Assembly (NCBI GenBank): GCA_964016885.1
Contig: OZ024744.1
Span: 89,032,001 to 89,096,000, forward strand
Source: Eledone cirrhosa
Taxonomy: Eukaryota
DNA: 64,000 bases
Reading direction: 5' to 3'
Within the stretch, counting starts at the first letter, position 1, and each line of letters opens with the position of its first letter. A model generated the notes under the pieces. It saw only the letters and a list, made by a program, of their open reading frames with translations. It made no database searches and was not told where the DNA came from. The position numbers and the translations under genes were made by a program. Positions 541-26,250 of the stretch are shown piece after piece.

Positions 541-1250
541 ATGAGAGACGTAAAATAAGAAAATTATAAAATTAACTTACTTACTAAAATTTCACTCCCA
601 ACTAATTAGTTTCTGAAAGGGAATAAATATACTTTCCGAAGAAAATATAAGAAGCCTTTCGTCGTCAGGGAAGTCTATTCTCAGCTAAGTTTCCAGGCAA
701 AGCGTGGACTCTGGGAACTTATACAAAAATAATTATCGAAAATATTTGTCGAGCAATATTGGCCTAGACTGCTGCTATGGTAGCAGGCAGGCTGCTGTCT
801 TCTTAACAAACCACTTTCCACTGATTGACCTCGATGTCACGTGATTGATTCTTTTTGAATTTGCCACCGACGCAGTAGGCAGTGATTTTCTCAATGGCTA
901 GGAATTCAGTCCACGCTTTGCTATTTTCTATCCACTGAATTATTTTTGTATAAGTTCCCAGAGTCCACGCTTTGCCTGGAAACTTAGCTGAGAATAGACT
1001 TCCCTGACGACGAAAGGCTTCTTATATTTTCTTCGGAAAGTATATTTATTCCCTTTCAGAAACTAATTAGTTGGGAGTGAAATTTTAGTAAGTAAGTTAA
1101 TTTTATAATTTTCTTATTTTACGTCTCTCATATTATTGTTCTGCAACCCCATGCATTGAACCACAAAGTTACTAAGACAAAACCTATGTATTTGCTAGCA
1201 TTGGTATGCATCTGTGTGTATATATATGTTACTAGATATATTAATTCTTT
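541..1250 (+). mobile_element. Non-autonomous HHR element family B, copy 1 (inverted repeat plus tail)
   Basis: Essentially perfect ~194-bp inverted repeat 541-734 / 938-1131, tail 1132-1250, (TA)n on both sides; diverged homolog at 25653-26250. Confidence 0.85.
998..1078 (+). ncRNA. Type I hammerhead ribozyme motif (mirror copy 594-674, minus)
   Basis: Stem I acttcc/gggagt; CTGACGA core 1004-1010; stem II gaaagg/cctttc; GAAA 1059-1062; palindromic stem III (aactaattagtt); GTT cleavage triplet. Confidence 0.7.
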
Positions 1251-1377
1251 ATATATATATATATATATATATATATATATATATATATATATATATATAT
1301 ATATATATATATATATATATAGAGAGAGAGAGAGAGAGAGAGAGAGAGAGAGAGAGAGAGAGGGGGAGCGAGGGAGA

Positions 1378-1570
1378 GAAATTGCTTCTACAGGACTAGA
1401 ACTTTTTCATTCGAAGGAAATCATCAGGAAAGCGCTTTCCTGCTGATTTCCTTCGAATGAAAAAATTATAGTCCTGTAGAAGCAATTTATATATAAAATT
1501 TATTTGTATGCACTAATGTATTGAGTACCTTACTTACTGTGGTTACCCCTGATTGAACCCGGGACTCATA
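1378..1570 (+). mobile_element. Non-autonomous HHR hairpin element family C
   Basis: Near-perfect palindrome 1379-1488 centred on gaaagcgctttc. Minus arm CTGATGA-t-ttc cttc gaa-t-GAAA; plus arm CTGCTGA. Tail 1489-1570; homolog at 27341-27466. Confidence 0.65.
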
Positions 1571-1577
1571 TACATAC

Positions 1578-1695
1578 GTGTTTGTGTGTGTGTGTGTGTG
1601 TGTGTGTGTGTGTGTGTGTATGTGTGTGTGTGTGTGTGTGTGTCTGTGTGTGTGTGTGTGTGTGTGTATGTGTGTGTGAATGTGTGTGTGTGCGT
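1578..1695. repeat. (GT)n microsatellite
   Basis: Direct reading. Confidence 0.97.
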
Positions 1696-1776
1696 GAACT
1701 TATGGGATTGGTCTATCACTTGATCTTATTTATGAATATAAATTAATATATGAATATGTGGGTGAAAAAGAAAGTA

Positions 1777-2142
1777 TACGAGGCTGGGCTGAAATGTTCA
1801 TAGGCTGATTATAAAGGAATGACGCTAAAGCTGAGAAGTCTTGCATGCATTAATTTGAACTTTTCGTCTTAATAACTACATTGTTTTTTAAGGAAAAATG
1901 ACATCTGACGTTCAAAAAGACATCAAAATTAACCAGTATCGGAATGATGATGACGTCAAGTCTGCTGTTGATGACTTTTAACCAATAGGATGAAAGCTTC
2001 TTCACCAATTGGATCCAAGCAGTGCAATACTGGTGAAACAAGTGTATAGATGACAAGGGGGATTATGTTGAAAAATAAACCTCATTTGGTCACATTCCAT
2101 GAGAGTATCTTGGTCACCCTATGAACTATTCAGCTGACCGTC
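1777..2142 (+). mobile_element. Internally deleted mariner/Tc1 derivative (MITE-like)
   Basis: TA then TACGAGG..ctgaaatgttcataggctga TIR, imperfect inverse at ~2113-2142; transposase C-terminus relic KC.D.KGDYVEK* at ~2041-2078. Confidence 0.75.
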
Positions 2143-2389
2143 AGGGGTATGTTATCTTGTGCCAAAAGTAGAAACATTATTCAATAAAGAAACCTATCGT
2201 TTTAAGCCCACAAATACATAGATGTAGATATATGCATTCTTACACGTCGTGATCCAGCATGCTCACACACAAGCGCGTGTGCACTATGCTCATTTATATA
2301 TATATATATATATATATATATATATATATATATATATATATATATATATATATCATCATCATCATCATCATCTTATTATTATTATTATC

Positions 2390-23745: not shown

Positions 23746-23793
23746 TATCTATCTATTTATCTATCTATCTATCTCTCTCTCTCTGTATATATA

Positions 23794-23972
23794 GTAATAA
23801 TTGATTCTAGTTTTGGCCCAAAACCAGCAATTACCCAGTGCATTACTGGTACTTTATTTTATCGACCCCGTAAGGATGAAAGGCAAATATAACCTCGGCG
23901 GGATTTGAACTCAGAATGGCAAGGGCCGTAAGCATGGCGTCCAACCCTCTACCGATACTGGCAATCCACCGC
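23794..23972 (-). mobile_element. tRNA-derived SINE
   Basis: Same A/B boxes and core as 7063-7248. Confidence 0.85.
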
Positions 23973-24253
23973 AGTAATAAAAAAAATCCAAGAGGGCCCG
24001 ATAAGGATAAATATATATCAAATATATAAGATGCATAGAGCAAACATTAATTGAAATAACAGAGTTTCAGAAGATCCCGTTAAGGGTGAAAGCAGCAATT
24101 CTTTGCTTAAACTTTAATCTTTTATTTTAATATATATATATACATATATAATATATATATACATACACACACACACACACACACATATATATATATATAT
24201 ATATATATATATATATATATATATATATATATATATATATATATATATATATA

Positions 24254-25515
24254 TAACTATGAATTGATCAACATATATATAAAAAAATATATACAAGCGT
24301 GTAACCACGCATGGCTAGTAGGTAACAAATAAATAAAGTTAACTAGAACTTCAAAAATAGATACCTTTTAATGATTAATCTTCCCTGAATATATTTCATT
24401 AAAGAAATATATTTCACCAATTAATCAGATGGTAAGACACAGAAAGTGGATATTATTGGATTATCAACAAGGAAGAACAATAATCAGCAATTCGTGTTTA
24501 CACTTCGAGCCAAAATCTTTAACTGGCCGCTACCACGTGTTGATATTACACATCACAGCGGCTTCGTTTCAGTGGCGTGAATAGGTATTCGACAACTAGA
24601 AATAGCAGTCAATTCCCTTCAACAGAGTTAGCTCTACAATCAAGGAGCAGTATTTATATATCTATATCCAAAATTAAGATAAATTCGCCCGGAAAATAAG
24701 CTCAAACACTTTGTAGGTGCGAGCATTTAATAACTATGAAAAACAACACGTGGTAGCGGCCAGTTAAAGATTTTGGCTCGAAGTGTAAACACGAATTGCT
24801 GAATATTGTTCTTCCTTGTTGATAATCCAATAATATCCACTTTCTGTGTCTTACCATCTGATTAATTGGTGAAATATATTTCTTTAATGAAATATATTCA
24901 GATTAATCATTAAAAGGTATCTATTTTTGAAGTTCTAGTTAACTTTATTTATTTGTTACCTACTAGCCATGCGTGGTTACACGCTTGTAAAAATTATCTC
25001 CTGTGATTATTCGTGTTTATATTTTTTTATATATATGTTGATCAATTCATATTTATTAAATGCTCGCACCTACAAAGTGTTTGAGCTTATTTTCCGGGCG
25101 ATATGGCGCACACCGTTAAGGCGTGACACCCACAATTTCGTTTTAGATTGAATTCATTTAATTTATCTTAATTTTGGATATAGATATATAAATACGGCTC
25201 CTTGATTGTAGAGCTAACTCTGTTGAAGGGAATTGACTGCTATTTCTAGTTGTCGAATACCTATTCACGCCACTGAGACGAAGCCGCTGTGATGTGTTAA
25301 AACAACACGTGGTAGCGGCCAGTTAAAGATTTTGGCTCGAAGTGTAAACACGAATTGCTGAATATTGTTCTTCCTTGTTGATAATCCAATAATATCCACT
25401 TTCTGTGTCTTACCATCTGATTAATTGGTGAAATATATTTCTTTAATGAAATATATTCAGATTAATCATTAAAAGGTATCTATTTTTGAAGTTCTAGTTA
25501 ACTTTATTTATTTGC
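24254..25515. mobile_element. Non-coding HHR-like element family E: one inverted permuted monomer plus ~1.4 tandem monomers (559-bp period)
   Basis: aacaacacgtggtagcgg at 24742 and 25301; inverse copy 24254-24740; CTGATTA-attggtgaaa/tttctttaat-GAAA-tatat-TC at 24858, 25417 and (minus) 24380-24436. Confidence 0.8.
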
Positions 25516-25641
25516 CGTCGAAACGGCTTGAGCTCAGCCGTCGGGGTACTACTCGTTCCTATTACCCACTCTACTACCCTAAGTATTGAGTACTTTGGTG
25601 CGTTATGGTCCACCTGGTTCCTTACCACATTTCCTTCGTTA
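25515..25641 (+). mobile_element. 3' half of a hammerhead plus PLE-type tail (family F)
   Basis: cGAAA-cggct-tgagctc-agccg-TC, then a tail with TGAGTACT ending in (TA)n; CTGATGA half missing. Confidence 0.5.
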
Positions 25642-25652
25642 TATATATATAT

Positions 25653-26250
25653 ATATGAAAGACGTAAAATAAGAAAATTATAAAATTTACTTACTTACTA
25701 AAATTTCACTCCAACTAATTAGTTTCTGAAAGGGAATAAACATGGTTTCCGATTGGAACAACATGGAGAAATGTCCTTTCGTCATCAGGGAGATCTGTTT
25801 TCAGCTAAGTTCCCAGGCAAAGCGTGGACGCAGGGAACTTATACAAAAATAATTCAGTGGATGGAAAAAAGCAAGCGAGGACTAGATTCCAGGACATTGA
25901 AAAAATCACTGCCTACTTAGTCGGTGGCGAATTCAAAAGAATCAATCACTTGACATCGAGGTCAATCAGTGAGGAGTGAGGGTGGTAATAAGACAGTAGC
26001 CTGGCTATTACTATGAAGCATAGCAGTAGTTTTGGCAAATTTTTGCTCAACAAAATAATTTGGAGGTAATTATAAAGAATTAGTATATCTACCGACATAT
26101 ATATATACAGATGTATACCTATGCTAGCAAATATATAGGTTTTGTCTTAGTAACTTTGTGGTTCAATGCAAGGGGATGCAGAACAATTATATGAAAGCTA
26201 GCATAGGTATACATCTGTATATATATGTCGGTAGATATACTAATTCTTTA
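25653..26250 (-). mobile_element. HHR family B copy 2: full permuted 536-nt monomer plus ~55-bp fold-back
   Basis: Homologous to 541-1250; atgaaag at 25655 and 26191; HHR 25709-25792(-) with CTGATGA. Confidence 0.85.

What the first reader, a model, noticed from the sequence alone, without database searches (positions are those of the whole stretch)
541..26250. Retrozyme-like HHR family B: circularly permuted ~536-nt monomer with fixed termini and a variable inversion point
Seen: both copies (541-1250 and 25653-26250) begin ATGARAGACG after (TA)n and end AATTCTTT before (TA)n. Copy 1 switches strand after ~194 bp. Copy 2 runs antisense around a whole monomer (HHR, middle, tail, back to atgaaag at 26191) and switches only in its last ~55 bp. 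Copy 2 shows the tail joined to the middle segment, so the template is circular or multimeric. The HHR core (CTGAYGA, gaaagg/cctttc, GAAA, ctaattag, GTT) is conserved while loop 2 has diverged, and stem I differs but still pairs (acttcc/gggagt vs ctcc/ggag). Known: PLEs carry type I HHRs with palindromic stem III, and metazoan non-LTR retrozymes form circular RNAs. Inference: a non-coding circular-RNA element copied by PLE RT, primed from both strands of a (TA)n target at two fixed template sites.
Basis: partly seen in the sequence, partly recalled or inferred. Interest (0 to 1): 0.8.

Follow-up and report, generated by a model that had tools for sequence, protein, structure and literature searches.

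The report
Ribozyme retrotransposon with twin start-site hairpins
This is a short non-coding jumping element with a hammerhead-ribozyme motif and thousands of copies, whose two fixed ends each lie just before a small hairpin shared with Hydra-clade Penelope-like retrotransposons; the hairpins likely tell a borrowed reverse transcriptase where to start on each DNA strand, which would explain the puzzling inverted, tailed ends of such elements.

Summary
Observation confirmed. The two copies belong to a non-coding 507-570-nt repeat family: 12,847 exact hammerhead-core matches genome-wide, control 0. Insertions sit in (TA)n as two inverted, often multimeric arms. Their outer ends fall at two fixed sites, A and B, about 59 and 178 nt past the predicted cleavage site. 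Of 67 fully classified two-armed insertions, 64 are A+B, 3 A+A and 0 B+B. This is the known Penelope-like 'inverted copy plus tail' layout, and the ribozyme is Hydra-clade type, so the element is a non-autonomous Hydra PLE (retrozyme-like). What I did not find in print: each fixed end lies 2-8 nt 5' of a bulged hairpin (YUC-stem-UH-GAR). The hairpin precedes the ORF of five Hydra families in this genome and 39 of 49 unrelated Hydra-like loci from metagenomes, with covarying stems. It correctly predicted one family's outer end. Best reading: a Hydra RT, likely a dimer, binds both hairpins and primes one target strand at each site. Circular RNA, self-cleavage, RNA-versus-DNA action of the hairpin and the partner family are not shown.

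The parts
541..734 (-). Copy 1, short arm starting at site A (outer end at 541, next to (TA)n); contains a hammerhead at 594-674
735..1250 (+). Copy 1, long arm of about one monomer, ending at site B (1250) before (TA)n; the site-B hairpin at its 5' edge is damaged by the junction
998..1078 (+). Type I hammerhead, Hydra-PLE type: extra base on each side of stem II, palindromic stem III, predicted cleavage after 1072 (GUU)
1132..1250 (+). Tail of 119 nt between site A (1131) and site B (1250)
1138..1161 (+). Bulged hairpin A, just 3' of site A (candidate start-site signal)
25655..26197 (-). Copy 2, long arm from site A: one full 536-nt monomer plus 7 nt; passes the cleavage site and the tail-to-middle junction
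25709..25792 (-). Hammerhead of copy 2, predicted cleavage between 25713 and 25712
26046..26065 (-). Bulged hairpin B, just 3' of the internal site B (about 26074)
   Evidence: the minimum-energy fold of this short piece prefers another pairing
26161..26184 (-). Bulged hairpin A of copy 2
26197..26249 (+). Copy 2, short arm ending at site B before (TA)n
12488..17298 (+). Comparator, not family B: ORF-bearing Hydra PLE (family A; frames 13258-14733 and 14697-15368) with the same inverted A/B ends, hammerheads at 12587(-) and 17102(+), tail of about 88 nt
17216..17235 (+). Same bulged hairpin just 3' of family A's inner end
25568..25591 (+). Same bulged hairpin in the tail of another Hydra family (D/I), whose outer end abuts the (TA)n into which copy 2 inserted
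   Evidence: the isolated piece folds otherwise

Best explanation
Family B is a non-coding, high-copy hammerhead element with the insertion layout, ribozyme type and two end-marking hairpins of Hydra-clade Penelope-like retrotransposons, and it is likely copied in trans by a Hydra RT-endonuclease that would bind the two hairpins and start reverse transcription a few bases 5' of each, one start per nicked strand of a (TA)n target. Shown: fixed ends A and B pointing outward into (TA)n; one A and one B end per insertion; one variable inversion point; tandem units up to four; both arms mostly of one haplotype; arms crossing the predicted cleavage site without a scar; a bulged hairpin 2-8 nt 3' of every such end, conserved and covarying across Hydra elements. 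Inferred: the hairpin is read in the RNA by the RT; the enzyme acts as a dimer on one RNA; the two 5'-truncated cDNAs are end-joined head to head; the template is a ribozyme-made circle (about 60%) rather than an uncleaved multimer. Hairpin B lies outside the copied region of a B end, so only a circle or a tandem junction restores it.
For: End classes 64 A+B, 3 A+A, 0 B+B of 67 fully classified among 144 insertions; 33 of 34 in the two pattern-selected sets (binomial P 7e-16 and 4e-9). A and B ends abut TA-rich flanks in 58 of 64 and 54 of 62 cases, 5' ends in 5 of 22. Opposite arms disagree at 24 of 260 informative cells against about 95 expected; tandem units at 18 of 216 against about 77. 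Only 3 of 237 arm 5' ends lie within 4 nt of the cleavage site. The hairpin descriptor hits the 536-nt monomer exactly twice, after A and after B; background 3e-4 per nt. It precedes the ORF in Hydra families A, C, F, G and D/I (family C's outer copy has one mismatch; G has long stems, read by eye). It predicted family F's outer end. In metagenome Hydra-like loci: 39 of 49 with at least one hit, 62 per 10,780 nt upstream against 43 per 91,423 nt in the ORF. Upper pairs covary when only the sequence boxes are fixed: 75, 54 and 56 of 83, 0 of 1000 shuffles each; no signal in ORF controls. Published Hydra hammerheads share the stem II inserts and GUU (PMC8557442 File S2). In vitro, a Poseidon PLE nicks and extends both strands, starts RT at two internal sites that define the tail, needs RNA 3' of them, and is predicted dimeric (PMC11167929).
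Against: No RNA, cleavage or binding evidence was obtained here. G-U pairs are not favoured over A-C in the hairpin stems (20 against 18), so action at the RNA level is not shown. No ORF-bearing relative of family B was found: 0 of 65 sampled insertions, and no DNA similarity to families F, G or I beyond the hairpin shared with family A. Two insertions (L009, L012) have arms of different linked haplotypes, and 3 are A+A. The Poseidon enzyme showed no strand preference of start site and used uncleaved RNA. Hairpin B is not the minimum-energy fold in isolation. 10 of 49 metagenome loci lack a hit, and one Hydra-like locus here (L185) shows no clear match. The descriptor was built from families A, B and C.
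Confidence: 0.72

Rival explanations
1. Same PLE mechanism, but the template is an uncleaved linear multimer transcribed from tandem arms; the hammerhead only trims transcripts or is protein-assisted, and no circle is involved.
For: Tandem arms of 2-4 units exist. The Poseidon PLE uses unprocessed RNA in vitro and its ribozyme mutants still insert (PMC11167929). Eight of nine Xenopus retrozyme dimers did not cleave in vitro (10.64898/2026.07.22.740005).
Against: Thirteen subfamilies 71-92% identical all retain whole monomers although arms are 5'-truncated (median 484 nt), which needs a way to regenerate multimers (inference). Units within an arm share haplotype. Of 144 insertions only 2 show two flips; both mix subfamilies, and one has a TA tract between the parts. 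Related retrozymes accumulate as circles (PMC7229834, passages).
Confidence: 0.35
2. The hairpins act in DNA: they are endonuclease recognition or resolution signals on cDNA or on the element's own DNA, and the fixed ends are cut sites rather than RT start sites.
For: No G-U bias. Craig et al. ascribe the tail most likely to endonuclease resolution of an intermediate. The D. virilis tail was needed for endonuclease recognition (as cited in PMC11167929).
Against: The later in vitro work maps genomic ends onto RT start sites and shows a need for RNA 3' of them. The hairpin lies in the uncopied part 3' of the end. Ends share 3-5 nt of UA-rich sequence with the target, as primer-template pairing would give.
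Confidence: 0.18
3. The two arms come from independent priming events on two separate RNA molecules, each choosing A or B.
For: L009 and L012 have discordant arms; 3 A+A insertions.
Against: 64 of 67 A+B and no B+B; arm discordance is a quarter of the independent expectation. A single dominant source at any time could mimic the concordance but not the A+B pairing.
Confidence: 0.1
4. A DNA-level satellite or fold-back element amplified without reverse transcription, with a decayed ribozyme.
For: Tandem and inverted units; no protein.
Against: Dispersed over many chromosomes, 5'-truncated, fixed 3' ends, covarying ribozyme, and the same layout as RT-bearing Hydra families.
Confidence: 0.02

Closest known systems
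Hydra-clade Penelope-like elements (Craig et al. 2021, PMC8557442; passages, section 11, supplement parts 1, 2, 52)
   Same: (TA)n target; partial tandems; inverted 5'-truncated copy; tail often at one end only; hammerhead with an extra base on both sides of stem II, palindromic stem III and frequent GUU. The published Hydra-2_Amil consensus shows the same hairpin near its 3' end (read by eye).
   Different: No ORF; a unit of about 530 nt; tail of 118-119 nt against the 30-40 nt quoted for PLEs. The words hairpin and stem-loop do not occur in that paper's main text.
Metazoan non-LTR retrozymes (PMC7229834, passages; bioRxiv 10.64898/2026.07.22.740005, parts 1-3 of 5)
   Same: Non-coding tandem units each with a type I hammerhead, low GC (36%), dispersed monomers to multimers, proposed to be non-autonomous PLE derivatives.
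   Different: PLE-type rather than canonical hammerhead; larger than the roughly 300-nt units of the first paper, though within 51-972 of the second. Fixed double ends, inversion and cis-signals are not described in what I read. Circles and cleavage are untested here.
PAc, Poseidon PLE of Anolis (PMC11167929; parts 1-2 of 4, figure text of two supplements)
   Same: Both strands nicked and extended; two internal RT start sites bounding the tail; AT-rich target; RNA 3' of the start sites required.
   Different: Other clade; 30-40-nt tail; no conserved signal was defined; no A-on-one-strand, B-on-the-other pairing was reported.
MRC1 and other non-autonomous Chlamys elements (PMC8557442, passage)
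   Same: Non-autonomous PLEs with pLTRs and head-to-tail multimers.
   Different: They resemble their autonomous partner at the 3' end; Naiad/Chlamys mostly lack canonical hammerheads. Family B showed no such partner among the families examined.

Membership tests
Non-autonomous PLE, Hydra clade | Partial tandem plus inverted 5'-truncated copy, tail on one end | tested here: met
Non-autonomous PLE, Hydra clade | Insertion into (TA)n | tested here: met
   58 of 64 A ends and 54 of 62 B ends
Non-autonomous PLE, Hydra clade | Hydra-type hammerhead near the 3' end | tested here: met
   against File S2 of PMC8557442
Non-autonomous PLE, Hydra clade | No RT-EN ORF of its own | tested here: met
   longest ATG ORF 53 aa in 13 subfamily monomers; no ORF-bearing copy among 65 sampled insertions (two of the endonuclease-bearing neighbours were read in full)
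Non-autonomous PLE, Hydra clade | Terminal sequence shared with an autonomous partner | tested here: inconclusive
   twin hairpin shared with five Hydra families; no extended DNA similarity to F, G or I; thousands of Hydra candidates remain unexamined
Non-autonomous PLE, Hydra clade | Mobilised by a Hydra RT-EN | not testable with these tools
   needs an in vitro or cell assay
Non-LTR retrozyme | Non-coding tandem units, at least two consecutive with a type I hammerhead | tested here: met
   61 natural cleavage-to-cleavage monomers, overlapping loci included; up to 4 units
Non-LTR retrozyme | Canonical type I hammerhead (short stem II, 1-2-bp stem III), as in PMC7229834 and PMC4209133 | tested here: not met
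   6-bp stem II with flanking inserts and a long loop, 8-nt palindromic stem III insert; so not filed under the strict 2020 definition
Non-LTR retrozyme | Self-cleavage in vitro | not testable with these tools
   core and stems conserved; no assay
Non-LTR retrozyme | Accumulates as circular RNA | not testable with these tools
   no RNA data were available to test this

The most novel reading that the evidence does not exclude
Hydra-clade PLEs use a previously undescribed two-hairpin RNA code. A dimeric telomerase-like RT docks on two bulged hairpins of one RNA and primes both strands of a cut (TA)n at once, one subunit per hairpin. This double-ended priming produces the tail and the inversion. 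Family B (and a second non-coding family, E) is a viroid-sized circular RNA parasite that keeps only a ribozyme and these two hairpins, which would make the hairpins portable tags for directing RT start sites.
Probability: 0.45. Interest if true: 0.85.

Novelty: new variant of a known kind. Interest (0 to 1): 0.64.

Why it matters
How PLEs make their inverted, tailed insertions and how their telomerase-like RT picks an internal start are stated open questions (PMC8557442, PMC11167929). A 20-nt structure that sits at both fixed ends, is conserved across the Hydra clade and predicts unseen termini turns those questions into point-mutation experiments. It gives a way to assign non-coding hammerhead repeats to the clade that moves them, and to call Hydra PLE ends in annotation. 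The element class itself, a hammerhead-bearing non-autonomous PLE, is known, which caps the score.

Tried and rejected
Rfam scans found no hammerhead or other family, only TA-repeat microRNA noise. Pfam missed the Hydra ORFs. Expression: no RNA holder was listed for copy 1, only 3 non-RNA contig sets from one study; this is no evidence either way, and no reads were laid. A metagenome scan for the family B core found 0 matches. Search for an autonomous partner: 30 GIY-YIG loci with 1.5-kb flanks (output cut, the only extended match seen was a neighbouring B copy), 30 pattern loci, 65 sampled insertions and Hydra families F, G, I gave none. Two endonuclease hits upstream of B copies were family C neighbours sharing a TA tract. 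The extra A before G12 and the GUU triplet first looked new; rejected as novelty because published Hydra hammerheads have them. A cleaved linear monomer as template was rejected: no pile-up of 5' ends at the cleavage site and no scar after the triplet. The G-U versus A-C test was uninformative. Inversion junctions: 15 of 41 with 1-3-nt microhomology, 26 with 1-31 nt of filler or mismatch; fits end-joining but does not discriminate. Target-site duplications cannot be read inside (TA)n. Lunse et al. 2017 was not held. No earlier scan findings. No promoter search and no complex prediction were run. The host organism was not determined.
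Full report
Observation. Copy 1 is a 194-nt antisense arm (541-734) joined to a sense arm of about one monomer (735-1250). Copy 2 is a full 536-nt antisense monomer plus 7 nt, then a sense arm of about 55 nt. Type I hammerhead cores lie at 668(-), 1004(+) and 25788(-). 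Rfam does not detect them.

Family. The genome is 3.0 Gb. DNA searches gave 3,372 and 3,799 candidates, of which 40 each were scored. An 18-nt core pattern spanning the cleavage site has 12,847 exact matches and its reversed control 0. The first 100 matches resolved into 65 insertions, suggesting roughly 8,000 insertions (extrapolation). Sixty-one natural monomers measure 507-570 nt and fall into 13 subfamilies 71-92% identical; the longest ATG ORF is 53 aa. GC is 36%. The monomer folds better than all 100 shuffles (z -4.1).

Ribozyme. In 20 diverged copies stem II is 97.5% paired, with four pair types at one position and two at another; stem I is 85% paired; stem III is invariant but was the search anchor. 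An extra base sits on each side of stem II and the triplet is GUU. The 5' extra base is a known PLE trait (PMC4209133, parts 1-2 of 4). Inserts on both sides, a palindromic stem III ending AGU and frequent GUU are listed for Hydra PLEs in File S2 of PMC8557442. The ribozyme is therefore Hydra-type and not new. Activity was not tested.

Insertion anatomy. Ends that face the flanks are RNA 3' ends at two sites, A and B, about 59 and 178 nt past the cleavage site. In 79 non-redundant insertions (89 mapped loci, less 8 overlapping duplicates and loci cut by an edge) the classes were 46 A+B, 2 A+A, 0 B+B, 22 one-armed and 9 with an unclassified end. In 65 insertions taken in genome order they were 18, 1 and 0, with 46 one-armed or unclassified, many from distant subfamilies that map poorly. 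The two pattern-selected sets give 33 of 34. Arm 5' ends spread over the whole monomer: 3 of 237 lie within 4 nt of the cleavage site, with a mild excess at the 5' edge of the ribozyme. Opposite arms disagree at 24 of 260 informative cells against about 95 expected, tandem units at 18 of 216 against about 77; L009 and L012 are clear exceptions. This layout is the PLE 'partial tandem, inverted truncated copy, tail at one end' (PMC8557442). The in vitro work on a Poseidon PLE explains the tail as the stretch between two RT start sites, with both strands extended (PMC11167929).

Link to Hydra. The window holds an ORF-bearing PLE at 12488-17298 with RWR, DKT and CxCx5C motifs and a C-terminal endonuclease, the features that define Hydra. 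Its copies show the same inner-plus-outer ends in (TA)n (query selected for the outer end).

The twin hairpin. A motif shared by family A's tail and the sequence after B's site B led to a bulged hairpin: lower stem N-Y-U-C with G-A-R-N, a 2-nt 3' bulge U-H, and a variable upper stem. The descriptor hits the B monomer exactly twice, just 3' of A and of B, against a background of 3e-4 per nt; it fits 193 of 210 site-A and 107 of 113 site-B read-throughs, overlapping loci included. Out of sample, 5 of 67 new terminus clusters had it at +8 to +10, with controls of 3, 0, 0, 1, 0 at other offsets and 0 antisense; many of the 67 are not true PLE ends. Two families with 40-60-nt tails, found beside Neptune-like ORFs or unassigned, lack it. 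I noted a prediction for family F's outer end, and it was met: about 25 ends run into (TA)n 3 nt before the second hairpin, against 23 read-throughs, overlapping loci included. Families C, G and D/I also carry two hairpins before the ORF. A second non-coding hammerhead family, E (about 482 nt), has the same pair.

Beyond this genome. Of 78 Hydra-like loci from metagenomes, 57 had enough upstream sequence and 49 were non-redundant; all 49 have DK[T/S] and RW[K/R], 43 CxCx5C. With the span widened to 50 nt, 39 had at least one hit and 19 two or more within 260 nt upstream of the ORF: 62 hits per 10,780 nt, against 43 per 91,423 nt inside ORFs (a few upstream hits are spurious long-range ones). 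Fixing only the sequence boxes, the three upper pairs were paired in 75, 54 and 56 of 83 cases, above all 1000 shuffles, with no such signal in 43 ORF controls. Hits form two peaks, about -120 and -60; the outer one begins C-G in 37 of 44 and the inner U-A in 23 of 39, the arrangement family B has. In 5 loci the 3' repeat runs into clean (TA)n 2-8 nt before the hairpin and in 6 more it diverges there. The published Hydra-2_Amil consensus shows the motif (read by eye).

Mechanism. Shown: fixed ends, A+B pairing, shared haplotype, hairpin position and covariation. Inferred: a Hydra RT-EN nicks both strands of (TA)n, binds the two hairpins on one RNA, anneals each primer to the UA-rich bases just 5' of a hairpin, and copies. 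The two truncated cDNAs are then end-joined (15 of 41 junctions with 1-3-nt microhomology, 26 with filler). Because hairpin B lies outside the copied region, a finished B end cannot serve again; only a tandem junction or a circle restores it. I put a circle at about 60%. Against: G-U pairs are no commoner than A-C (20 against 18), so a DNA-level role is open; no partner family was found; hairpin B is not the isolated minimum-energy fold.

Novelty. The class is known: retrozymes as non-autonomous PLEs (bioRxiv 10.64898/2026.07.22.740005, parts 1-3 of 5; PMC7229834, passages; PMC6765202, passages; PMC3088659, passages). I found no description of the twin hairpin or of strict A+B pairing in searches (listings only for papers not named above), in Rfam or in earlier scan notes. 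Subscription papers, Lunse et al. 2017, Repbase and Dfam annotations, the preprint's supplements, and the figure images and GenBank file of PMC11167929 could not be seen and may bear on this. Verdict: new variant of a known kind, interest 0.64.

Noticed in passing
window 12488-17298: ORF-bearing Hydra-clade PLE (family A) with a frameshift between RT and endonuclease parts, inverted hammerhead ends and an 88-nt tail; 634 genome candidates for its 3' end.
   Followed up: yes
L132:277-905; L187:3540-4080; L216: Second non-coding hammerhead family (E), monomer about 482 nt, with the same two hairpins, a tail of about 137 nt and a core reading GAAG where GAAA is expected.
   Followed up: partly
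L379 4550-7040 (G000:C1692 tandem array): Very young Hydra family G: about 80 copies with an identical endonuclease segment, 830-aa open frames, tandem units of about 6.3-6.6 kb with a long 3' region; a candidate active source of RT.
   Followed up: partly
L271 1449-3587; L380: Hydra families F (713-aa frame, many intact copies) and D/I (784-786-aa frame, 3.5-kb tandem array on C1).
   Followed up: partly
window 180-441 and 1380-1580; L034, L007, L161, L167: Very short fold-back insertions of two 60-80-nt arms meeting near a hammerhead core, with a tail on one side; likely extreme truncations of the same mechanism in other families.
   Followed up: partly
window 25510-25639: Tail and outer end of Hydra family D/I directly beside the (TA)n that holds copy 2; PLE insertions nest in each other's TA tracts.
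   Followed up: yes
L009, L012: The two arms differ at the same three linked family polymorphisms (monomer 325, 412, 460), suggesting two RNA templates or later conversion in a minority of insertions.
   Followed up: partly
L203, L219, L229, L235 and others: Several one-armed copies stop at monomer position 133-137, the 5' edge of the hammerhead core; a possible RT stall.
   Followed up: no
L121-L150: Single units within multimers carry deletions in hammerhead loop II (selected by my pattern); possible RT hairpin skipping.
   Followed up: no
window 3197-4992, 8943-12399, 19139-23550, 29715-40950, 44664-61023: Many copies of LINE-type RT elements (RVT_1, zf-RVT, one with an exo-endo-phosphatase domain), some 94-99% identical.
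   Followed up: no
L067, L071, L075, L087, L090: Neptune-like PLEs with C-terminal GIY-YIG; termini with 40-60-nt tails in these loci lack the bulged hairpin.
   Followed up: partly
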